DNA of 64,000 nucleotides from Eledone cirrhosa. Taxonomy: Eukaryota. Below are positions 3,804 to 59,500 of the stretch, piece by piece; position 1 is the first letter of the stretch, and each line of letters begins with the position of its first letter. Made by a program: the position numbers and the translations under genes. The stretch lies in assembly GCA_964016885.1 (NCBI GenBank), contig OZ024743.1, forward strand, positions 152,830,001-152,894,000, written 5' to 3'. Under the pieces are notes generated by a model, which was not told where the DNA came from, made no database searches, and was given only the letters and a program-made list of their open reading frames with translations.

Positions 3804-5383
3804 TAAACTGGTTGCACACATCATCAATCATGCTATATATGGTGGAGTCATACCCAAAGACTGGTGCAGCAGTATTCTCATAAATTGCTACAAAGGTAAA
3901 GGGGATGCTCTGGAGTGGAGCAATTATAGAGGCATAAAGCTGATGGATCACGTTATGAAACTGGCAGAAAGGATATTAGTGCAACTACTTAGAGAAAGGG
4001 TCAACTAGATGAGATGCAGTTTGGTTTTGTGCCTGGGAGAAGTACAACACATGCCCTCTTCTTAGTGAGACAACTACAAGAGAGGTTCTTAGAGAAGAAT
4101 AAGCCACTATACTTAGCTTTTGTTGACCTAGAGAAGGCCTTTGATAGGGTACCCCTATCTGTCATCTGGTGGTCCCTGAGGAAACTAGGTGTTGAGGAAT
4201 GGCTTGCGAGGACAGTTCAAGCTATGTACAGAGGTACTGTCAGTAAAGTCAGGGTAGGAATGGAGTTTAGTGAGGAATTCCAGATACAAGTAAGAGTACA
4301 TAAGGGTTTGGTCCTCAGCTCACTCTTGTTCATTATAGTCCTCCAAGCCATAACAGAGGAGTTTAAGACTGGCTGCCCATTGGAACTTCTCTATGCTGAC
4401 GATCTGGTCCTTATAACAGAATCAAAAGAGGAACTAGAGAATAAATCCTGGCTATGGAAACAGTTGGAATTAAGAGGACTGAAAGTGAACCTAGCTAAGA
4501 CAAAAGTGTTGATAAGTAAGTAAAAAAGAGGACAACACTCTGATTCCGTCAGGGAAATGGCCATGTTCGATATGCAGAAAAGGAACTGGCATAAATTCTA
4601 TAAAATGTACACAATGCAGATCTTGGGGACACAAGAGATGTAGTGGGATAGCAGGCAAACTAACAGGTAGGGAAAAATACATATGCAGTAGATGTAGAGG
4701 GAAATTTGACAGTAGAAGTCTTAGAGATAGACACATTTTTCAAATGCAAGTAGGTTCTATAGAAGTGGTTGATAGCTTCCGGTCCCTAGGTGATCAGATT
4801 AGCATACTGTTCCAAGGCCATAGTATCTAGAATAAGGACAGGTTGGAAGAAGTTTAGGGAGCTGCTTCCTCTGCTGATAAAGAAGGGTTTCTCCCTGCAT
4901 ATGAAAGGCCGGTTATATGATTCCTGTGTGAGATGTACGATGCTGCGTGATTGTGAGACATGGGCAGGAACTGCAGGGGATATGCAATGGCTGGAAAGAA
5001 ATGAAGCAAGCATGCTCCGTTGGATGTGTAATGTCAATGTACATGAACGACCAAGCATGGATGAGTTGAGAGAGAAACTGTGTATAAGAGGGATAAGTTG
5101 TAGTGTGCGGGAGAGAAGACTGTGATGGTATGGATATGTGATGTGCATGGAGGATGACCGCTGGGTAAAGAAGTGCCAAGAAATGCCACTAGAAGGAAGA
5201 CACAGTAGAGGAAGACTACGAAAATCATGGGCGGAAGTGGTGAGAGCGGACCTCAGATCACTGAAGCTCATGGGGGAGATGACCAAGGAACATGACAAGT
5301 GGAGAGATGCTGTGCTGAATAGGACCTATCCCACCATTGCAAGCAGGGAAAAGCAGATGTAAACTGATGATGATGATGATGAT
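3801..5383 (+). mobile_element. 5'-truncated, frameshifted RTE-clade LINE (RT, PHD finger, thumb, (TGA)n tail)
   Basis: ORF pieces KGKGDALEWSNYRGIKL, QFGFVPGRST, AFVDLEKAFDRV, LLYADDLVL and WC/RRL-like thumb; ends GATGTAAACTGATGATGAT. Confidence 0.93.
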
Positions 5384-6140
5384 ATATAGTACAGTTGAAT
5401 TTTGCAATAAATGTCTAAAGTTGGTAGAGTACTTAATCTGAGAGATGAGTTGTATTATATAAATATCTTTTATGACATTTTTTATGTAATAAAAATATTT
5501 ATCTTTTCCGTCATGCTACAGTAAAATTTATAGTGGCTATACTAACAGATTACAAAAGCATTGCCATTGCTTGCTTTGTCTTTCTGTGGTGAAGATTGAG
5601 ACATTTGGTTGTTTGTTTTTAGGACTAGCTGACTGAGGATATCCTTGAGCAGTCCTAATTGTTGATTAGCAATTTTTAATATTTGCAAATAGCGATTTCT
5701 TGGCAGGCTTCAAACTGTATGGTTAAGGAGATTGAAATGTAAGAATTTTAAAATATTTTCTTTATTAAATTTCTTTAATTTTTTTTATTGTTCTCTTATA
5801 TTCTATTTGGATATTATCATTTCATGACTGTAACGCTGTGAGTTCACTCTGATACAGGTTTTCACACCTGTTATTATTGAGAAAATTCCCTGAGCAACAT
5901 GGTCAAAATAATAGCATTGCATTGATCAAATTTCCTATTGTATACAAATATGTATATGTGTGTGTTCGGGGGGTTCCTGTGTGCGTGTATATATATATAT
6001 ATATGCAAAAGGTAATCAGAAATAACAACACAATCGGTAGAGTATCTGGAAGGAATATATTAGTTTAACACTTGTTTTGCATAGTTACGGCTTTCTAACT
6101 GTTTATCTATAAACATACCGTATTTCTGTAGAAATACAAA

Positions 6141-9100
6141 ATCATCATCATCATCATTTTACGTCCGCTTTTCCCTGCTTGCAAGGGTGGGATGGGTCCT
6201 ATTCAGCACAGCATCTCCCACTTGTCTTGGTCCTTTGTCATCTCCTCCATGAGTTTCAGCAATCTGAGGTTTGCTCTCACCACCTCCGCCCATGTTTTCG
6301 TGGTCTTCCTCTACTGTGTCTTCCTTCTAGTGGCATTTCTTGGCACTTCTTTACCCAGTGGTTATCCTCCATGTGCATCACATGTTTATACCATCGCAGT
6401 CTTCTCTCCTGCACACTACAACTTATCCCTCTTATACACAGTTTCTCTCTCAACACATCCATGCTTGGTCGCTTACGCACATTGACATTGCACATCCAAT
6501 GGAGCATGCTTGCTTCATTTCTTTCCAGCTGTCACATATTCTCTGCAGTTGCTGCCCATGTCTCACTACCATGCAGCATTGCACAGCTCACACAGGTATC
6601 ATATAACCAGCCTTTCGTACACAGGGAGAAACACTTCTTTGTCAGCAGAGGAAGCAGCTCCCTAAACTTCTTTCAACCTGTCCTTATTCTAGATACTATG
6701 GCCTCGGAACACTATGCTAATCTGATCACCTAGGGACCGGAAGCTATCAACCACTTCTATAGAATCTACTTGCATTTGAAATATGTGTTTATCATTGCGA
6801 ATTCTACTGACAAATTTCCCTCTACATCTACTGCACATGTATTTTCCCTACCTGTTAGTTTGCCTGCTATCCCACTACATCTCATGTGTATCCAAGATCT
6901 GCATTGTGTACATTTTATAGAATTTATGCCAGTTCCTTTTCTGCATATCGAACATGGCCATTTCCCTGACGGAATCAGAGTTTTGTCCTCTTTTTTACTT
7001 ACTTATCAACACTTTTGTCTTAGCTAGGTTCACTCTCAGTCCTCTTAATTTCAACTGTTTCCATAGCCAGGATTTATTCTCTAGCTCCTCTATTGATTCT
7101 GCTATAAGAACCATATCGTCAGCATAGAGAAGTTCCCAAGGGCAGCCAGTCTTAAACTCCCCTGTTATGGCTTGGAGGACTGTAATGAACATGAGCGGGC
7201 TGAGGACCAAACCCTGATGTATCCTACTTGTATCTGGAATTCCTCACTAAACTCTATTCCTATCGTCACTTTACTGACAGTACCACTGTACAAAGCTTCC
7301 GCTGTCCTCGCAAGCCATTCCTCAACACCTAGTTTCTTTAGGGACCACCAGATGACAGATCGGGGTACCCTATCAAAGGCCTTCTCTAAGTCAACAAAAG
7401 CTATGTATAGAGGTTTATTCTTCTCTAAGAACCTCTCTTGTTGTTGTCTCACTAAGAAGAGGGCATGTTGTACTTCTCCCAGGCACAAAACCAAACTGTA
7501 TCTCATCTAGTTTGACCCTTTCTCTAATTAGTTGCACTAATTTCCTTTCTGCCACTTTCATAACCTGATCCACCAGTTTCATGCCTCTATAATTGCTCCT
7601 CTCCAGAGCATCCCTTTGTAGCAATTTATGAGAATATTGCTGCACCGGTCTTTGGGTATGACTCCGCCATATATAGCTTGATTGATGATGTGTGCAACCA
7701 GTTTTGTGCCTACGTTCCTTGATGCGTACAGCATCTCAGCAACTATCCCCGACGGTCCAGTGGCCTTACCATTTTTCATTTCCTTAATTGCCTCTTGGAA
7801 CCTATATTCGTCAATCTTAATAGCTGATCCCTCTGTCTGATCTACTGGGGGTAATTTCTCTCTTTCCCATTCGTTATCCACATTCCTCAGTCTCTCATAA
7901 TGACATTTCCAGGCATCCTTTTTTGATCATTCGTGACACTAAGTACAGCGGCATCATTCCAGACATACTTATCTCCAACAACATTTTGATTTGCACTGAC
8001 ACACTGCCTTGCAATGTGAAACACTGCACATTACTGATCTTCCCATCACAGAACATTGACAAACCTCCTACTCTCCGCCTCCCTGCGTGCTAAGTACACC
8101 TGACGTCTAGCTTCTCTCTTAGTGTCTGTATATTCTTCCCTACTCCCACCATTTTTCCAAGCGTTCCATGCTAGTCTTTTGTCTCTAATAGCCTTATCTA
8201 CCGTGCTGTTCCACCACCAGGTCACTCTCTCTCTGGTTGGAGCTCTTCTCCATCCACAAGTTTCTTCAGTAGCCTGCAGCGAGTTGTCACGTAAGAAATT
8301 CCAGTTATCATCTATGTCATATGACTCTAAATCGTCTTCTTTTTCGTCATACACATCTTGAAGGGCTTTCCTAAATTTATATTTTAGTGAAAGGTCTTTA
8401 AGCTTCCAGACCTTTCTTCACGCCTTCCTGTATGTCTCATTCTGTCTCTTCCTCACTAAGATGTCACTAACGACTACCTATGTTGTGGGGTACATTCTTC
8501 CCCGGGGTATGTCTTAGTATTTGACACCATCTGTCTGTCTCACTGCCTAACTAGCAAGAAGTCAATCTGGCTTATGTGCTCGCCTGATTTGTAGGTTCTT
8601 AGGTGGTTGGCAGGTTTCTGGAAGTTAGTGTTGCAAATGGTTAGTGCACTTGCATCTCAAAATTCAAGAAGCCTCACTCCTTCTTCATTTCTTGAGCTGT
8701 AACCCTGCACACCATGTACCCCAGTGTATCCATCCTGGAGCTGTCCAACATGTCCATTGAAGTCCCCTGCTAGCATAACGATGTCTCTGTCCTCTGCCAT
8801 TGAGGCTGTTTGTAAACGTTGCTCGTAAAGCAGTCTTTCCCTTCTTTACCTAGGCCTGCCTAGGAAGCATAGGCAGAGATGATTGTCAGTAGTCTGTTGC
8901 TTACAACTAATCTAAGCTTAATTATTCTATTACTAACTCTAACTACCTCTATTGTCTTATCGATTCATCTCTCAGCCAGTAAAATACCTACCCCACCTAA
9001 CCCATCATCATTAACCCCCCCCCCCCCCGAAAAGCTTATAACTAAGATGTTTTCCTGCGATTAGTCTTGCAGAGGCACCTCTCCATCTCACATCTTGCAT

Positions 9101-24926: not shown

Positions 24927-27900
24927 TGCTTTCTTTATTAACCACAAGGGTTTACACAAAGTAGACATTAAGGACAGTACAGGACAATACAGGACGGTAC
25001 TAATGGGCATTTCTGCATGTAAAAAAACAAAACAGCAAAGGATGTAATAAAAGAACAATGAAAAATTCCCCACTAGTGGGGAGACTTCCAAGGGCCATCG
25101 TGGAGAAAGCCCATTAAAAAGGCCATGGTGGCCCTGACAACCAGGGCAATTGTCCTCTCCCAGTTTTCCACCTTCAGTTTACAGGCATATACTCAGATTA
25201 GGTCCACTCACTCGGGCCATTCTTGCCTCTCTCACCCATCTTTCAACAAAAAGCTGGGAAGAGAGCATTTCCCTCTCTACCCTGATTTTCCTTTTCAAAT
25301 GAAATTGGAAAAAGTTAATCAGGGCATCACCGAAGATGTAAGTGCTCATCTTCAGCCCTTTCAGACGCATCCACCATACTATCTCTTTCGCCATGGCCAC
25401 AAGACAGATAAAAACTGCCTGCCCTTCCTGGCTAAAGGAAGAGGGTGGGGCAATCCTCACAATGGACTCAGCTGATAGTCAGATCCGTTCTACATGCGAC
25501 AGCTAATTGATTTTCGTCGACGCCTAGAGTTTCCCCAAGTACGTCGTCGCTCTTCCCCTCCACTAATCCTCTATAGAACACCAAGGTGGAGTTTCCACCG
25601 ATCACATTGCCCGACTGGTCGAGAGCTGTGAGCGCCTGAAGACATTCCAGTCTCCAAGCGCCCCTCTCGGTCTTCGCTTGACCCAGGACTGCAGCTCCAT
25701 CAAGGAGATGAGCTGAGGAAAGACGCGTCTAGAAAACGGCGACCACACCTGATCACCGTCGAGGAAGAGGTGGAGATGTCGTAGCCTGAGCATGTGTCTC
25801 CGCATCATATACCACGGCATGCCCAGCCCTCCACGTAGCGGGTGTTGACAGCAGATGGACCGCCTGATCATCGGAGTGCGTCCCTTCCACAAAAAGCGAA
25901 AGAGCAAACGCTCCAGCGCAGTCAGGCGAGGCTTAGGACAAGGCACGACGGTCAGGCGGTAGTAGATGACGGACGCGATGTATGCGTTAGCCACCTCCGC
26001 TCGCCCTTTCAGGTATAGCTTCCTCTTCGCCGATTTCTGGGTGAGAGAAGCCACCCTGCTCGTCACCACGGCATGGACCTGCCTCTCCAGGTGCCGAGCT
26101 GCAGGCCCACTGACTTTTCCTGGTTAATCATTGCTCCTGTCACCGCTTCATATTCTCTTAGTGTAATACCGATCGCCTCCATGTGTTTGGCGTTCGACAC
26201 CACTACGGTGACATCGTCTGAATATGCTGACACGGATCTTCCGCATCCTAGTTCGCGCCGGACCCCCCCCCCCCCCCTCAACGTCTCCAGTTTGTGCAGT
26301 AATGGCTCGAGAGTTAATACGTACAACAGGGACGAGAGGGGACATCCTTGGCGGACCGAACGCATGATGTTGAACGGTTCCGAAAGGTGACCATTCACTC
26401 TCACCACAGAGCAGATGTCGCTGTGCATGGCAGCGATCCAGCCTCTGAAGACGGGCCCAAAGCAAGCCGCCCTCAGGGCTGCCGCCAGGTAACGAAGGTC
26501 GATCCTATCGAAACCATTCGATTGATCTACATTGATCAAGGATCCACCCGTGCCAGGTTCCCTAGTTACCCTCTCCACGATGTATCGCATGAGGTGGAGA
26601 TTGTCGTGGATGTATCTGTCGGGAATGGCGCATGTCTGCGCCTCTCCCACCAGACCACCAACTACAAGCGCCAACCTCTTTGCTAGCACCTTGGCCAAAA
26701 TCTTGAACGCTGTGTTTAGCAGAGTTATGGGCCTGAAATTATCTATGTTATCCCCCTTGTTCGGATCCTTTCTCAGCAGCGCCACCGGACCTCGGCTCAC
26801 AGAGCTGGGAATTCTCCCGTTCTGTTGCCAGTTGCAGGAGACGTCCGCTAGAGGCCTACGAACAAGTCTGGCATCTGTACGTAAAGTTCATAGGGCAGAC
26901 CATCCAAACCAGGCGATTTAGCCCTTGTGCAGCCCGTCATTGCCTCCCGTACTTCAGCGGCTGTTATCGGCTTTTCGCAATACTCCGCCTCAGTGGCCGA
27001 GAGCCGCGGTAGTCCGTCGAGGTAGACACTAAAGTCCATCCTCGATCCGGCCCGCCGCTGCCAACAAACAGCCGAGCGAAATGTCGCTGAAAAGCTTCAC
27101 ACATTTGCCCTGGATCGAGTAGCATGAGCCCGTCGTGGTCCACCAAAGACCGGATCGTGGCTTTGTTGCCACGACGCGCCTCCGCCACTCGGGCCCATTG
27201 AACGGCTTTCGTCCCCTCCCCTCGTGTCTGAGAGCACGCACCCTAGATCTGACAACGGAGCCTTCGTGTTTTGCATTGAAGAATTGGTCAAGGGCCAATT
27301 AGGCCGCAAGTACGTCGGTCGCGATGCCTTTGTTAAGCGCCTCGTCTAATTTTCTAAGTAGTACTCCCTCTGCTCTATTTTTCTCTATTGCTAAAGCCTT
27401 ACTAAACCTAATGGACTCTGTTCTAATCGCTCTTTTCAGAGCAAACCACCACTTGTTGTTGACGATGGCTCCCGTCAACGCCCGCTTAACTAGTTCGCTA
27501 ATCCGGTCTCTGTAGGCCTTGCGCGATGGTAAGGACGCTTTTAGCTTCCAGTAGCCGGGTCCTTGTCTATGAAGCCTATCTAAGTCAACCACACAGATCA
27601 GGAATTTGTGGTCCGTGTAGCTGACTATCTTAAATTGTGGACAGCCTATGCTAGACCTATCTATTTCCCTACAAAATACTCTATCTAGATATGATCTGGA
27701 TGACCCGATATGGTTTGTCCAAGTCCACATTGGCACATTAGGGAAATCCAATCGGACCTGTCAGACAGTTCAAAACGCCTGAGCAGGTTGGTGAAGCTCT
27801 TGCACCCTCCTCCCCTATCCGTAAATCCCACACAGTCCCAGCGTGCATCTAAGATCCCGTTTCAGTCGCCCACTAACACTAAAGAGCAGGACGTTCCAAG

Positions 27901-30635: not shown

Positions 30636-30894
30636 AGATGTATATATATACATATATAATTCCAAGTAATCAGTATTGGTTGTTCACATATAGCTCGGTT
30701 GCCAACATTGAGTTCCATACTATGGTGAGCATATCAAAAACAGAATCATATAATGACAACACATCAAATAACTGTTATTCAATGACTGATGTCTTTGATG
30801 CCTTTGAAATGTGCATATCAGGAAGATGTAATAAACTGAAGATGCATATGTGATACCATATCTCTTCTATTACATATATATATATATCAAATAT

Positions 30895-31612
30895 ATTGGT
30901 GTTTCTATTCACAATTAATTTTGCGAGCAACAACAAGTTGTCTGGGTGATTGGTAGTTACCACAATTCCGGTTTGTATTTATTTTCTTAATTTTTTCTTA
31001 AATTGAGACAAGCAAACCCAATTGTCTATAGTTAGTATTCTTTTCACCTTAGCGAATCCGGTCCCTTACGATTTGAACACATATATGTATATGTCTGTGT
31101 TCGTTTTTCTTTTATATTCTATTATGATATACGGCTCAGAAATATCTCTTTCTTAGAGCTATTTTATTGTAAGAGACTATTTTCAGTTCCTAACTTTGAT
31201 ATATTCGGCTCCGTTAATTTGTTGAGCTATTTCAAATGTCGAGTAAACCTGGCTGCTATTTTTAGTGGTGTGGGTTTATGAGACACACTAGGATGCCATG
31301 TGCGCTGTTTTATGTATTTTATATATAGCATACTTGGATGTGTCTAGGATACTATTTCATCACCCACTGATGAGCTTGGATTGGTGTTCCTATTCACAAT
31401 TAATTTTGCGAAACAACAACAAGTTGTCTGGGTGATTGGTAGTTACCACAATTCCGATTTGTATTTATTTTCTTAATTTTTTCTTAAATTGAGACAAGCA
31501 AACCCAATTGTCTATAGTTAGTATTCTTTTCACCTTAGCGAATCAGGTCCCATACGATTTGAACACATATATGTATATGTCTGTGTTTGTTTTTCTTTTA
31601 TATTCTATTATA
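30895..31612 (+). repeat. Partial tandem repeat, 485-486-nt unit (about 1.5 copies), hammerhead-bearing (retrozyme/pLTR-like)
   Basis: ATTGGTGTT.CTATTCACAATT starts at 30895 and 31380; the 3' end runs into a TA-rich tract. Confidence 0.9.
31359..31436 (+). ncRNA. Canonical type-I hammerhead ribozyme
   Basis: Stem I ATCACCCA/TGGGTGAT (8 bp); CTGATGA 31367-31373; stem II closes GC/GC; GAAA 31410-31413; stem III CAAC/GTTG; GUC triplet with predicted cut after 31428. Confidence 0.88.
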
Positions 31613-31665
31613 ATATATATAAATATATATTTATGTATATATATATATTTATGTATATATATATT

Positions 31666-31735
<70 letters not shown>

Positions 31736-32281: not shown

Positions 32282-34680
<2,399 letters not shown>

Positions 34681-34925
34681 ACATATGAGCATATTTTGTT
34701 AAAAGAATGGGCATATTCATGCAAGTTAATCTGCAAAGAATCAATAAAATTCAATAGTTTGTACTTTTATTCAAATATTTTCAATAATAATTTTAAAATC
34801 ATATTTTGAATATTCTAATAGAGAAAGAAGAAAAAGTAAAATAGTTATTTTAACTACACATGTGTGAGTGTATATGTGTATATATATGCATGTTTTTTTT
34901 AGTGTGTGTATGTGCATCTTATATG

Positions 34926-41311: not shown

Positions 41312-41373
<62 letters not shown>

Positions 41374-41565
41374 GTATAGGATTATCCAAGATGTAGTAAT
41401 GGTTAATTACTACACTTGATATGGTTGACGTACGGTAAGAGGTTACTCTACGAGTTATGGAAGAATTGTTGAAGAAACTTAGTTCCTGATCCTTCTATAT
41501 TCCGGAGTGTATATAAAGAATGAATAATAACAGGTAGACATCATAAAAAGGTAATTTATTCCGTG

Positions 41566-41677
41566 TGCTTACAAGTGTTTCTACGGTGGTACTACAGCCT
41601 AGTTATGCTATGTGCAAATTCACAAGTACTTGCAGAACTCAAATATCCAACGCTGTGACCACTGTTTCCTCAGAGCA
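41566..41677 (-). ncRNA. Type-I hammerhead with long stem II (left pLTR)
   Basis: tgct CTGAGGA a acagtggt..acagc...gctgt..accaccgt a GAAA cacttg TA agca. Confidence 0.75.
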
Positions 41678-42167
41678 GAATGGTAAAATGTACAATGTAA
41701 ATACCCTTAAGTGGGGTTGTTGGGGAAGATAGAGTAGAAAAGGAAGAGAGAAAAGTAGGGAGAGGGAGAGAGAGAGAAAGATATGCAGGGGTTGGAGAAG
41801 TAGGAGAGAGTGGTTTATAGATATCTTAATCAAAATGTTATGGTAGGGGTTTTATTATACTGGTTACTTTTGGAGAGATGCGTTGATAGTTATGGTCGGA
41901 ATTATTTATTGCCCCAGAGGGCAGGTTCATAGATGTTGAGAGGGAGGTAGGCCAAAGGCGAGAGACAGAGAGTGTAATGGATGTAGAGAGAGAGGTAGAG
42001 AGGGGACAGACGAAGTTTGTGTGGTGAGTGAACTTTGGGTTTGTAGTAGTAATCTAGGAATTGCACTGAGTTACCATTTATAGTGATAAGCAGTGTATTG
42101 TCTTGTAGTGTGGGGGGAAGAGAAGGTGGTTAGCTAGAAAGCGGTGTTATAGTTACGGGTTCGAATG

Positions 42168-42900
42168 TTAAGTTATTTTATAGTGAGAGAATTTAGCTTT
42201 TAGTTTGTGGTTGCAGTATAATGATCGTTCAATTCTATCGTTAAGTAGTTTGTTTTGGGATTTTAATATGTAAAAGAGCTCAAGGTTACATAACCTGCAG
42301 TACTTCAATCCACTCCGATATGCACTTGCGCTGGAAAGTATATCCCATTTTAAGGTGAACTGTTGGTTGTGTTCACGGAGTTGCCAGGTCTTGTTGGCGA
42401 GCGTGGTCACAAAACGGTGATTGGGATGTTTGATTGAGAATCGATGACGGTACCAGCGAGATTTAAACGAAGTGGTGGTAGATCCGATATAATACCATTT
42501 CTGGTCGTTCGATTCAACCTTGCATTGGTAAACAATGTTGGACTTTAGGCATTCATTCTTCAATGGACATCTTTCAGGTAGATGGCAGTTACATTCTTTG
42601 TTGTGGGTAGCGGGTATACCATGGATAGGTTGTGATAGCGGTACAGGTGGGTTGTGTAATACCCGTCTCCCATTTAGTGGTTGGGAGGCAGATATTGCGT
42701 TCTGCCCATCTGTTACTAAAATGTTTTGTTTTGTAGAGTTGTTTAATTGCCTTAGGTTAAGTTTTTTTATGTATGCTTCAAGGTTTGGTGCCGTCAGGTA
42801 TGATAGTCTAATAGTTTTAGAGTTCAGAATTTTGCTGTATTTATGGGAACTAGGGAAGTGTTTGTTGATTAACTTAAAGAATGAAAGAGATAGTTTTGTA
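42168..42900 (-). CDS. Uninterrupted PLE thumb/linker + GIY-YIG endonuclease reading frame, 5'-truncated (Naiad-like)
   Basis: FFKLINKHFP..KILN..TIRLSY, CNC....CPL...C, NIVYQC..YYIGSTTTSFKSRW.RH, CRLCNLE and LLNDR.E...CNH. The ORF start at 42944 comes from the inverted arm. Confidence 0.88.
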
Positions 42901-43471
42901 CTACTTAACGATAGAATTGAACGATCATTATACTGCAACCACAAACTAAAAGCTAAATTCTCTCACTATAAAATAACTTAACATTCGAACCCGTAACTAT
43001 AACACCGCTTTCTAGCTAACCACCTTCTCTTCCCCCCACACTACAAGACAATACACTGCTTATCACTATAAATGGTAACTCAGTGCAATTCCTAGATTAC
43101 TACTACAAACCCAAAGTTCACTCACCACACACACTTCGTCTGTCCCCTCTCTACCTCTCTCTCTACATCCATTACACTCTCTGTCTCTCGCCTTTGGCCT
43201 ACCTCCCTCTCAACATCTATGAACCTGCCCTCTGGGGCAATAAATAATTCCGACCATAACTATCAACGCATCTCTCCAAAAGTAACCAGTATAATAAAAC
43301 CCCTACCATAACATTTTGATTAAGATATCTATAAACCACTCTCTCCTACTTCTCCAACCCCTGCATATCTTTCTCTCTCTCTCCCTCTCCCTACTTTTCT
43401 CTCTTCCTTTTCTACTCTATCTTCCCCAACAACCCCACTTAAGGGTATTTACATTGTACATTTTACCATTC

Positions 43472-49062: not shown

Positions 49063-49487
49063 TATAAGTAGTGTAAATAGATGGAGCGTATTTTCTCTAG
49101 ATGTTGCTTGTACAAAGTTAGGAAATATAACATACAAATGTTTCGACATATATACATAAATTATAAATGCTTAGACACACAAAGAGAGATAGTCACACAT
49201 TGACACATGCACACACACTTACAAATACACACACACAAGCACACTTAGTGTCTAGAAGGGTTTTATTTGAGAATAATCATTAATTAATTATTAATTTTAA
49301 GATATTGCTGTGATGGAGTGTTGCATTACAAAAAGTATTTTAATAATCATGGGAAACAATCTAAGATGTTTAATTCCCAATTATATATATATTCCTGTAT
49401 ATATATTTATCATAAATTGAGATATAAACTCAAAATAGTCTTTTACAATTAAATAGATCAAAGAAGGGAATCTTTCCAAGCCGTGTA

Positions 49488-49778
49488 ATATAATTGGATA
49501 TATGAGAGGGATGAACACAGATACAAGTATACATGTGTTCCAATTACAAATGACCAAGTTAGCTAGGTTGAAAAAATACTAATTTAAAACAATATGGTTT
49601 GTCTGACTCGATTTGAAGTAATAAATCATTAAATATATTTTTTATTGATTTATTAGTTTAAATCGAGTCAGGCAAACTATATTGTTTAAAAATAGTATTT
49701 TTTTACCCTAGCTAACTTGGTCATTTGCAATTGAAACACGTGTATACTTATATATGTGATCATCCCTCTCATATATCC

Positions 49779-49786
<8 letters not shown>
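49488..49786. repeat. About 300-nt foldback element (about 145-nt arms, minimal spacer)
   Basis: ATATAATTGGATATATGAGAGGGATGA.. / ..TCATCCCTCTCATATATCCAATTATAT, pairing to a centre near 49637. Confidence 0.85.
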
Positions 49787-49834
<48 letters not shown>

Positions 49835-57129: not shown

Positions 57130-59500
57130 AACATGACCAATACTTGAAAAAACTTAAGCAGGTGGTGTATTCGTGCCAACGCTTACCAATGGTCATGAAT
57201 CTTGGGTAATGACTGAAAGAATATGATTGCGAATACAAGTGGCTGAAATGGGGTTCCTCTGGAGGGTCGTTGGAGTAACATTATTTCATAGAGAGTGTAG
57301 TTTGGCGATCAGGGAGTCGCTACATATAGAGCTGCTAATTCTTTGAATTGAGAGATCACAGCTCTGATACTATAGGCATGTGGTTAGAATGTCTCAGGAA
57401 ATAATCACTGGACAGATTTTATAGTCAAAACCAACCAGCAGGCAACCCAGGGGTAGACCATGAGCAAGGAAGAGGAGGAGAAATCATAGAGATGTTAGAG
57501 CAAAAGGAAATTGATATATGCTGTGTGCAAGAGACTAGATGGAGAGAAGAGTCTGCTAGTGTCCTTGTAGACAACAATCGGTGCTACACATTTTTCTGGA
57601 TGGAAAATGACAATGAGTTGGGTGGTGTAGGTATAATATTAGCTGAGAAATTGGTAGATAAGGTAATCTCAGTGAACAGGGTGAATGCAAGAATCATTAA
57701 ACTCAAACTCGTCCTGAAAAAACAATTGCTACAATTATATACGCTTATGCACCCCAATCTAGGTTGCCAGAGGAACTTAAGGATAGGTTTTATGAGTTCT
57801 TGATGCACACTACTGCCCTAACAAATGAGAATGACTCCCTACTCATTTTGGGGACTTTGGGAAACAGGGGACTTTGGGAAACATTGTGACAGCTTCTATA
57901 GAGTCCATGGAGGCTATGGGTTTGGCACAAGAAACGAAGAAGGCTTCAGGCTTCTAGAATTCCGTGACACAAATGACATGTCGATATGTAACACAAACAT
58001 CAAAATATCTGACAACCACCTGATCACCTATAGATCAGGGGAGCATTCTAGTCAGATAGATTTTATCCTTATCAGAGGACGAGATAAATTGAAGGTTGTA
58101 AACACAAAAGCCTTCCCTGGTGAGCCATATATAGGGGAGCAGTCAGCAAAGGTAGGGTTAACAATGACTACAGCAAGGAATTTAACATAGAGGCTGGTGT
58201 CCACCTGGGCTCCGTTCTTTGCCCTCTCCTGTATATTATTGTATTGCAAGTTATAACAGAGAAGTTTAAGACTGGCTGCCCATCCGATATGCAGATGATC
58301 TTACACTTATAACTGAATCTATGGTGGAACTAGAGAAGAAATTCCAAACATGGAAGCAAGGCCTAGAAAGTAGGGGTCTCAAAATCAACCTGAGAAAGAC
58401 TAAGGTCCTCATAAGTAGAAGAGAAAACAGTACCCAGATCCCTTCAGGGAAATGGCTTTGCTCAGTATGTAGGAAAGGTGTAGGCAGAAATTGCATTCTA
58501 TGTTCCAAATGCAAACTATGGTTACACAAGAGATGTAGTGGGACCTCAAGAAGTTTAGCCAAGAATGTAGGCTTTACATGTAGCAGTTGCACTGGGACAG
58601 TAAGCAGCAAATAACCACAGGAAACAAGCACTATCAAATTCTGAGAGATCTTGGTAGAAGCAGTAGACAGCTTCTGCTACCGACGTGACTGAATTAGCAG
58701 CAGAGGTGGGTGTTCTGAAAGTACAGTAACCAGGGTAAGAACGGAATGGAACATTTCAGGGAGCTACTACCACTGCTAGCTGCAAAAGGCTTTTCCCTAA
58801 AATGTGTGCATATGAACAGCAATGTTGTTTGCTAGTGAGACCTGGGTGTTGTGTGCAGAAGAGTTCCATAGATTAGAAAAAATGAAGCTTGGAGACCCAA
58901 GAGGACCAGGGATGAGGTGATAAAAGCTGATCTTGCCCATTTGCACTTCTCAAAGGTGATGACACAGGACCGAGATCTCTGGCATTACGCAGTAATACAG
59001 AAGACCCAACTTCCCATGGGTGCAAGTGAAAACTGAAGCATATAGACAGCATGCCCCAACCCCCTTCCACTGTAAAGTGGTCGTGTAGGTGTCACAACAA
59101 AAAACAACCAGCCAGTCCACACTGTAAAGTAGTCTTGTAGGTGCCACAGTAAAAAGCACCCAGTACTCACTGTAAATGAGGTTGGTGTTAGGAAGGGCAT
59201 CCAGCTGTAGAAATCAAGCCAAAATCAGTTCTGTATGAGCAAGACATGGTCACTTGACCTGGCATTGCCCACAGCAGGACAACTCATGTAACCCATGCTA
59301 GAGTGGAAGAATGGATGTAAAAGTGTAATGATGTTGATGATGATGAGCTCAGTTGGTCTCGCTTGGGGATCTAGCCAGATCAGTTGGAAATGGTTGCTTC
59401 TGACAGGACCCACTGGAAGGAGTGTTTGAGGACTGTGCCCCCTGACCCTCTCAGGAGTAATTGGGTGAAAGAAGAAGAAGAAGAAGAAGAAGAAGAAGAA
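57130..59500 (+). mobile_element. Expander/Rex3-like RTE 3' fragment split by a nested RTE
   Basis: VFVPTLTNGHESWVMTERI*LRIQVAEMGFL..RQPRGRP (57165-57460) resumes after 59345 and ends in (GAA)n. Confidence 0.65.
57480..59345 (+). mobile_element. Internally deleted RTE (APE, RT/PHD, 3' UTR)
   Basis: IDICCVQETRW, GGVGIIL, HGGYGFGTRNEEG, SQIDFIL, YADDL and CSVCRKG..CSKC..LHKRCSG..CSSC; AGGAAGGGCATCCAGCTG UTR; (TGA)n tail. Confidence 0.88.

What the first reader, a model, noticed from the sequence alone, without database searches (positions are those of the whole stretch)
30895..31612. 486-nt unit carrying a textbook, probably active hammerhead
It has a perfect 8-bp stem I, intact CUGAUGA and GAAA, a 4-bp stem III and a GUC triplet, so it should cleave as a monomer, unlike the minimal forms. 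GUC sites recur one unit apart (about 30942 and 31428), defining an about 486-nt monomer with no credible ORF. The first copy is truncated within stem II and has a damaged GAAA.
Basis: partly seen in the sequence, partly recalled or inferred. Interest (0 to 1): 0.75.

Follow-up and report, generated by a model that had tools for sequence, protein, structure and literature searches.

The report
Penelope-borne retrozyme with pseudoknotted hammerhead
This is a cut-short copy of a half-kilobase non-coding repeat, found at hundreds of places in this animal genome, that carries a hammerhead motif predicted to cut its own RNA and is likely copied by Penelope-type jumping-gene enzymes; its odd feature is a predicted long helix, kept by paired mutations, between the ribozyme's oversized second loop and the sequence just upstream, which likely helps or controls the cut.

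Summary
The hammerhead letters, the 486-nt spacing and the broken first copy are as described, but the motif is not textbook: stem II is 2 bp plus a 32-nt loop, Rfam misses it, and the best nested fold is a misfold 4.8 kcal/mol below the active one. The locus is one 5'-truncated, 1.5-unit copy of a non-coding family of about 496 nt; with one whole ribozyme it cannot release a monomer itself. No copy joined to an ORF was found. Copies sit in (TA)n; 97 of 112 arms end at two sites 85 nt apart, usually one per arm: the Penelope tail. The hairpin behind the far end also precedes Hydra-clade ORF starts here, so Hydra enzymes are the likely carriers; no exact partner was found. Across related families the 5' flank pairs with loop II with compensatory changes, likely a pseudoknot or switch. 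No RNA data. The class is published (non-LTR retrozymes, Penelope-derived), and this scan noted similar families, pseudoknots and hairpins before on other DNA of this genome. New variant of a known kind.

The parts
30895..31617 (+). Whole insertion: one arm, 5'-truncated, about 1.5 units, ending at family end site A
   Evidence: L001: start 448, end 189 on the 496-nt reference
30895..30942 (+). Remnant of the upstream hammerhead: 3' part of loop II, GAG for GAAA, stem III, GUC; no CUGAUGA
30943..31428 (+). One unit, cut site to cut site (486 nt; family about 496; 12 nt missing after about 31193)
31359..31436 (+). Type I hammerhead: stem I 31359-66/31429-36, core 31367-73, 2-bp stem II, 32-nt loop II 31376-31407, GAAA 31410-13, stem III, predicted cut after C31428
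31340..31358 (+). 5' flank F, predicted to pair with loop II
31378..31397 (+). Loop II segment L, partner of F (18-19 possible pairs in the superfamily); its two halves can instead pair with each other (stem IIb, about 31379-83 with 31397-401)
31438..31447 (+). Small hairpin 3' of stem I with one compensatory pair; also at 30952-30961
   Evidence: (columns 123-128: UA 56, CG 8)
31132..31160 (+). Hairpin A (GCTC...GAGC) directly behind end site A (31131; second occurrence of the site 31617)
31206..31228 (+). Hairpin B (GCTCC...GTTGAGC) directly behind end site B (about 31204); same motif precedes Hydra-clade ORF starts
31132..31204 (+). Tail between end sites A and B (85 nt in the family, 73 here)
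31618..31732 (.). (TA)n tract at the 3' junction; a shorter TA-rich tract lies at 30870-30894

Best explanation
It is a 5'-truncated, 1.5-unit copy of a non-coding hammerhead retrozyme family of about 496 nt that is likely copied into (TA)n by the endonuclease and reverse transcriptase of Penelope-like elements, likely of the Hydra clade, from an RNA longer than one unit, likely a circle. Steps: (1, inferred) a rare locus with two whole ribozymes is transcribed, cut after GUC and ligated; (2, inferred from the ends and from PMC11167929) the Penelope protein nicks both strands of a TA tract and starts copying inside the RNA at two fixed points, each just 5' of a GCTC...GAGC hairpin, one per strand; (3, shown) copies run back through the cut site without a scar, stop at scattered points, and give one-armed or back-to-back two-armed insertions with an 85-nt tail on one side; (4, predicted) the ribozyme does not rely on the usual loop 1-loop 2 contact: its 5' flank pairs with the long loop II, and part of this helix likely stays as a pseudoknot that props up the 2-bp stem II, while the full helix would hold it off. 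The window's own copy is likely a dead end.
For: Ends: 97 of 112 arms from 66 insertions end at A (47) or B (50); of 46 two-armed insertions 32 have one A and one B, 2 B+B, 0 A+A, 12 have an end elsewhere; 85 of 112 arms run into (TA)3 within 16 nt. PMC11167929 shows in vitro that a Penelope protein cuts and extends both strands at AT-rich DNA and starts at two internal RNA sites whose interval is the tail. No ORF: upstream of the unit lies more unit or host DNA. More than one unit: 38 of 112 arms exceed 496 nt; repeats within one arm differ by 4.5% (34 pairs) and the two arms of one insertion by 4.2% (87 pairs) against about 6.7% between insertions; at 19 polymorphic sites repeats agree in 190 of 222 comparisons (86%) against 55% expected; 88 of 92 crossings of the cut site carry no deletion. 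Partner class: the pattern hairpin plus S-x-K-N-I-P codons has 244 hits, control 0; 28 of the 30 loci read are Hydra-type ORF starts of several families; in the window's own Hydra family end B lies directly before such a hairpin and the ATG; Hydra elements insert in (TA)n. Ribozyme: compensatory pairs in stem III (3), stem I (UA 51, AU 13); position 17 is never G in 69 rows. Flank helix: 83.8% of cells paired over 19 pairs, compensatory at columns 14-65 (UA 28, GC 25), 15-64 (AU 58, GC 8), 18-60 (AU 41, UA 17), many G.U changes; slid controls for the whole structure 31-46% against 88%; duplex energy with loop II has its deepest median at F (-14.6 against mostly -3 to -6); a more distant family with rewritten stem I and loop II keeps the pairing. 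Pseudoknots with 1-2-bp stem II give fast hammerheads (PMC3088659).
Against: No RNA run holds the stretch, so cleavage, expression and circles are unshown. No Hydra pLTR aligns with the unit beyond shuffles (best scores 48, shuffle maxima 30-67), and the anchored comparison with the window's Hydra family is modest (ranks 43 and 19 of 496). The count of pairs with change on both sides (12) does not exceed shuffles (10.7; 135 of 500), the compensatory cells come from a few family-level events, two of the 19 pairs are open in over half the rows including this family, and RNAalifold recovers only three pairs of stem III. In nested ensembles of four natural circular monomers the active fold has probability 0.00 and the flank helix does not dominate (0.1-4.9 expected pairs). 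5' ends do not pile up at the cut site (1 of 112, an alignment overrun; 0 of 30 within 3 nt), which gives no in vivo sign of cutting. Agreement within insertions is 84-86%, not the 96% that background mutation predicts; the excess sits mostly at CpG and TA-repeat sites, but a few insertions (L090, L053, L037) may have two templates. Only one same-strand pair 496 nt apart stands among the 98 exact hits. In PMC11167929 cutting was not needed for insertion; in the 2026 preprint 1 of 9 tested dimers cut.
Confidence: 0.72

Rival explanations
1. Same element and carriers, but the template is an uncut linear read-through of a rare homogeneous tandem master; the hammerhead is a passenger or cuts late, and no circle is needed.
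For: No pile-up of 5' ends at the cut site; active fold disfavoured by a median 5.6 kcal/mol in 66 of 87 related motifs scored; PMC11167929 found unprocessed RNA the main substrate; only 1 of 112 arms exceeds two units cleanly (L028).
Against: Each subfamily would need its own homogenised master; repeats in one arm are as alike as two arms of one insertion; tandem pairs of whole ribozymes are rare; stems I and III and the NUH rule are kept across families of 67-93% identity.
Confidence: 0.3
2. The flank-loop II helix is an off-switch only: it forms during transcription and blocks stem II, and the active ribozyme uses the extended stem II (IIa plus IIb) with no pseudoknot.
For: The transcript up to 31412 folds into the flank helix (-17.4 kcal/mol; z only -1.2); only 7-10 nt (70 of 76 motifs measured) link the far end of the helix to the closing GC, too few in my estimate to span 19 pairs; stem IIb has its own compensatory pair (AU 45, UA 10).
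Against: In circular ensembles the helix does not dominate; it leaves the catalytic core unpaired; stem IIb is broken in about half of this family by the A variant at position 451, which improves the flank helix.
Confidence: 0.3
3. It is only the pseudo-LTR (end piece) of an autonomous Penelope-like element whose ORF was lost by 5' truncation.
For: All insertion marks are those of such elements; the sample is a fraction of at least 1,316 arms.
Against: Arms longer than a unit continue into more unit, never into ORF (38 of 112); read-through past end B leads to unit sequence, whereas in Hydra elements it leads to an ATG within about 45 nt; the two Hydra ORF ends near family copies are on the other strand (L028) or about 880 nt away across unrelated DNA (L204).
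Confidence: 0.06
4. One reading: a textbook ribozyme that cuts freely, releasing a 486-nt monomer from this locus.
For: Core, stem I and stem III of the second copy are intact.
Against: One whole ribozyme only; upstream copy lacks CUGAUGA and GAAA; misfold favoured by 4.8 kcal/mol; a private A-to-T change at 31355 breaks one flank pair; the two repeats already differ by 7 substitutions in 237.
Confidence: 0.05

Closest known systems
Metazoan non-LTR retrozymes (PMC7229834, parts 2-4 of 6 read; bioRxiv 10.64898/2026.07.22.740005, parts 1-3 of 5 read)
   Same: Non-coding AT-rich tandem unit with a type I hammerhead, no LTR features, co-occurring with Penelope-like elements that are proposed as carriers.
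   Different: Unit about 496 nt (170-400 in PMC7229834; 51-972 in the preprint); dispersed 1-2-unit truncated arms instead of arrays; 2-bp stem II with 32-nt loop and a covarying flank helix; fixed paired ends and a shared start hairpin tie it to one clade. It fails the preprint's working rule of two whole ribozymes at this locus.
Hydra clade of Penelope-like elements (PMC8557442: passages, section 11, parts of the supplement read)
   Same: (TA)n targets, 5' truncation, inverted 5' arm, one-sided tail, hammerhead near the 3' end, GCTCC...GAGC hairpin behind the far end.
   Different: No ORF; tail 85 nt against the 30-40 stated for Penelope-like elements and 139 in the window's Hydra family; the listed Hydra hammerheads have 3-7-bp stem II with loops of 3-10 nt; no alignable pLTR.
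Poseidon element of the green anole, in vitro (PMC11167929, parts 1-2 of 4 read)
   Same: Two internal start sites downstream of the hammerhead, both strands extended, AT-rich targets.
   Different: There the sites lie inside an ORF about 111 nt from its start and the ribozyme needs the protein; here they lie 189 and 274 nt past the cut in a non-coding RNA.
Pseudoknotted hammerheads (PMC3088659, passages read)
   Same: Very short stem II with a base-paired contact between the stem II loop and the stem I side.
   Different: Published pseudoknots are about 4-6 bp; here 18-19 pairs are possible, more than can likely coexist with a closed stem II, with a competing stem IIb.

Membership tests
Type I hammerhead ribozyme | Core C3 U4 G5 A6 N7 G8 A9, G12 A13 A14 A15, U16 H17 | tested here: met
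   U16 in 64 of 69 rows and no G17 in 69 (the other core columns were fixed by the search pattern)
Type I hammerhead ribozyme | Three helices, stem I open, supported by covariation | tested here: met
   stem I 90% paired with one compensatory pair, stem III three, stem II 2 bp (no covariation possible to see)
Type I hammerhead ribozyme | Canonical 4-bp stem II with loop 1-loop 2 contact (textbook form) | tested here: not met
   2 bp plus 32-nt loop; no Rfam hit at gathering score
Type I hammerhead ribozyme | Self-cleavage 3' of position 17 | not testable with these tools
   no assay; no RNA run
Non-LTR retrozyme | Non-coding unit of a few hundred nt with a type I hammerhead, repeated head to tail | tested here: met
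Non-LTR retrozyme | At least two consecutive whole ribozymes at the locus (preprint's rule for an active copy) | tested here: not met
   one at this locus; met by L011 in the family
Non-LTR retrozyme | Expressed as linear and circular unit-length RNA | not testable with these tools
   no RNA holder listed
Non-LTR retrozyme | Target-site duplication longer than 4 bp when present | tested here: inconclusive
   junctions lie in (TA)n
Penelope-like element, autonomous (pLTR) | RT plus GIY-YIG ORF between the terminal repeats | tested here: not met
Penelope-like insertion pattern | 5' truncation, partial tandem, inverted 5' arm, tail on one side only | tested here: met
Dependent of Hydra-clade elements | (TA)n target and shared signal behind the end | tested here: met
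Dependent of Hydra-clade elements | Alignable similarity to the pLTR of one autonomous family | tested here: not met
   only some families sampled
Pseudoknotted hammerhead | Covarying pairs between loop II and the stem I side | tested here: met
   few independent events
Pseudoknotted hammerhead | Contact raises the cleavage rate | not testable with these tools
   needs mutants

The most novel reading that the evidence does not exclude
The ribozyme is a built-in two-state switch: the full flank-loop II helix keeps the RNA circle from cutting itself again, and partial opening (by strand exchange with stem IIb or by the Hydra protein bound at the twin hairpins) leaves a pseudoknot that turns it on. 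That would be a self-pairing answer to how animal retrozyme circles survive their own ribozyme, in a parasite that reads a defined Hydra start signal.
Probability: 0.25. Interest if true: 0.75.

Novelty: new variant of a known kind. Interest (0 to 1): 0.5.

Why it matters
PMC7229834 leaves two points open: which enzymes move animal retrozymes, and what stops the circles from re-cutting, since their ribozymes look unblocked. This family gives concrete handles on both: two fixed start points marked by a hairpin shared with Hydra-clade ORF starts in the same genome, and a covarying helix that can be broken and repaired in a test tube. It also suggests that long-loop motifs dismissed as half cores (PMC8557442) can be whole hammerheads that standard models miss. 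The locus itself is an ordinary decayed copy.

Tried and rejected
No RNA holder was listed for the unit; laying the three listed runs (one sample, kind not on record, contigs only) showed family variants but nothing on expression. Rfam at both thresholds: no hit at gathering score. RNAalifold on A2 found three pairs only. The adjacent Neptune-like element (32380-34900, minus) as partner: no DNA match to the unit, short tail without the hairpin; rejected. Naiad as partner, suggested by the long gap between the core halves: not tested, dropped when the Hydra hairpin matched. A-to-I editing scars: none (A>G 4.6 against T>C 7.5 per 1000 rare changes). Extension of stem I into 31351-58 with 31437-43: family changes favour the separate 3' hairpin. 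Metagenome scan with the loose pattern: 120 loci, none aligns with the unit; chance matches. The figure of 3,218 candidates is not a copy number. Alignment A1 held one row on the wrong strand and was not used. L007 was left out of the within-insertion figures because its alignment ran into a diverged neighbour; with it the tandem figure is 7.4%. Paper searches returned no description of a retrozyme hammerhead with a flank-loop II helix or of Hydra-dependent non-coding elements; subscription journals are mostly missing, the preprint's supplements are closed and the supplement of PMC7229834 was not read, and either could hold such a case.

Full report
1. What is there. The window is G000:C4:152830001-152894000 in a 3.0-Gb genome; earlier scan notes call it a cephalopod, which I did not test. 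The stretch 30895-31617 holds a 238-column direct repeat, 486 nt apart, 96.6% alike, between a TA-rich tract and (TA)n at 31618-31732. The second repeat lies in a complete type I hammerhead: stem I 31359-66/31429-36, CUGAUGA 31367-73, GAAA 31410-13, stem III of five pairs counting A15.1-U16.1, GUC ending at 31428 (numbering as in PMC4209133, parts 1-2 of 4 read). The first repeat begins inside loop II, has no CUGAUGA and reads GAG for GAAA. The longest ATG ORF in the unit is 45 aa. Rfam gives no hit at gathering score and only a 20-bit match to RAGATH-1. The best nested fold pairs the core with the 3' strand of stem III, 4.8 kcal/mol below the constrained active fold.

2. The family. An exact 22-mer of the motif occurs 98 times, a looser core pattern 657 times, a 21-mer near the 3' end 1,316 times, a more distant family 121 times; all controls 0. 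The 90 loci reduce to 66 insertions with 112 arms. On the 496-nt monomer of L011, numbered from the cut, 47 arms end at 186-192 (A), 50 at 272-275 (B), 15 elsewhere. Of 46 two-armed insertions 32 have one A and one B, 2 have B twice, none A twice, 12 have an end elsewhere; 85 of 112 arms run into TA repeats; 5' ends are scattered. These loci were chosen by likeness to the ribozyme region, so the share crossing the cut site (87 of 112) is inflated. The pattern is the one PMC8557442 gives for Penelope-like elements: 5' truncation, partial tandem, inverted 5' copy, tail at one end, here 85 nt long. PMC11167929 explains the tail as the interval between two internal start sites of reverse transcription, with both target strands cut and extended. 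The window's copy is a single arm ending at A, of the subfamily with G at 451, lacking 12 nt of the tail.

3. No ORF. Upstream of the unit lies more unit or host DNA. In the 89 related loci (one duplicate, one unrelated) homology spans the unit at 67-93% and tandem periods are mostly 464-531 (outliers 399, 402, 952). tblastn over L001-L090 and L121-L150 and a Hydra C-terminal profile over about 300 held loci found Penelope fragments in flanks, none joined to the unit; the nearest cases are L028 (other strand) and L204 (about 880 nt away).

4. Template. 38 of 112 arms are longer than a unit, one clearly longer than two. Without L007, repeats within an arm differ by 4.5% and the two arms of an insertion by 4.2%, against about 6.7% between insertions. 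At 19 polymorphic sites agreement is 190 of 222 within arms and 366 of 436 between arms, against 55% expected; the misses fall mostly on CpG and TA-repeat sites, while subfamily markers such as 264 disagree in 3 of 43. 88 of 92 crossings of the cut site have no deletion. So a unit was likely read more than once from one template lineage. A circle is the simplest source; a homogeneous linear multimer, or gene conversion, is not excluded. 5' ends do not gather at the cut, so cut linear monomers are not the visible template. The 4% divergence marks the sampled copies as old enough to be decayed.

5. Carrier. Both ends are followed in the RNA by a GCTC...GAGC hairpin (31132-60, 31206-28), kept with changed loops in the related families. 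An earlier scan note pointed to the Hydra clade. The window holds a Hydra-type element (GIY-YIG at E 2.6e-4; CxCx5C linker and DKT motif as) whose family has two ends 139 nt apart, the far one directly before a similar hairpin and the ATG. A pattern joining the hairpin to the codons of the Hydra N-terminal motif has 244 hits, control 0; 28 of the 30 loci read are Hydra-type ORF starts (my reading). The 3' end of coral Hydra-2_Amil in the supplement of PMC8557442 shows the same hairpin behind its hammerhead (by eye). Against: no Hydra pLTR aligns with the unit and the anchored match to the window's Hydra family is modest. The Neptune-like neighbour has a different tail. I put Hydra as carrier at about 0.7.

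6. The ribozyme's odd part. Alignment A2 holds the window and 68 of 87 related motifs; 19 were dropped for truncation or indels in the region. Columns fixed by the search pattern say nothing. Stem III has three compensatory pairs, stem I one, the 3' hairpin one, and position 17 is never G, so the fold is maintained between families. The 5' flank (31340-58) can pair with loop II (31378-97) over 19 pairs, 83.8% of cells, with compensatory changes at three pairs (25, 8 and 17 rows) and many G.U changes, which favour RNA of this strand. Cells with change on both sides exceed all 500 shuffles, but the number of such pairs does not (135 of 500), rows are related, and RNAalifold found only stem III. 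The duplex with loop II is deepest at the flank (median -14.6; second dip -9.3 at the 3' hairpin) and best of all windows in 53 of 88. A family with rewritten stem I and loop II keeps the pairing in three segments in about 25 of 30 loci, the rest being cut off or deleted there. A rival pairing inside the loop, stem IIb, also has a compensatory pair. Only 7-10 nt link the helix end to the closing GC in 70 of 76 motifs; by my rough geometry the full helix and a closed stem II cannot coexist, a part can. The active fold has probability 0.00 in nested ensembles of four circular monomers and the flank helix does not dominate either, so the ribozyme likely needs a tertiary prop or a protein, as the anole one does. 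PMC3088659 shows fast hammerheads with 1-2-bp stem II held by a pseudoknot (passages). I favour a partial pseudoknot in the active state, with the full helix as a brake; this is prediction.

7. Comparison and verdict. It works like a non-LTR retrozyme moved by Penelope-like enzymes, as proposed in PMC7229834 and argued in the 2026 preprint. The family meets the sequence criteria; RNA criteria are untested; this locus fails the two-ribozyme rule. What my nine paper searches did not find is the flank helix and a clade-level start signal. The scan has noted related families, such pseudoknots and twin hairpins elsewhere in this genome, nothing by sequence or near this place; my note on the helix came before those look-ups, the Hydra lead after. 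New variant of a known kind, interest 0.5.

Noticed in passing
window 49412-49791: Second, more distant member of the same superfamily (70-74% alike): two short back-to-back arms, one ending at B (minus) and one at A (plus), without the ribozyme.
   Followed up: partly
window 41370-42962, minus: Hydra-type Penelope-like element, 97-99% like its best 40 relatives, with a hammerhead whose stem II region spans about 80 nt (near 41673-41578) and two ends 139 nt apart.
   Followed up: partly
window 32380-34900, minus: Neptune-like element (label from the cysteine linker) between (TA)n tracts, with its own hammerhead-like motif near 32615; relatives in the genome have open frames of about 1,160 aa.
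   Followed up: partly
window 46858 (+) and 37324 (-): Two related minimal hammerhead-like motifs with a very short stem III loop.
   Followed up: no
window 15121 (+) and 14748 (-): Back-to-back pair of hammerhead-like motifs with a long stem II region; a similar motif stands in L102 and L301.
   Followed up: no
window 9558 (+) and 3122 (-): Two further hammerhead-core matches, stems not checked.
   Followed up: no
L006 680-1462 (same place as L078): A 30-nt piece of loop II of this element is expanded to about 27 tandem copies in the inverted arm: a minisatellite born from the ribozyme loop.
   Followed up: no
G000:C2:313353331-313753603: At least 12 Hydra ORF starts on one strand, many about 22-23 kb apart, suggesting a large segmental tandem array.
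   Followed up: no
family position 117 (window 31059 and 31545): An apparent CpG site is A in most copies and T in fewer, C in few: C-to-A outnumbers C-to-T there.
   Followed up: no
window 3993-8417, 25602-27760, 57405-58190: Fragments of non-LTR retrotransposon ORFs (RT and endonuclease-like, by eye).
   Followed up: no
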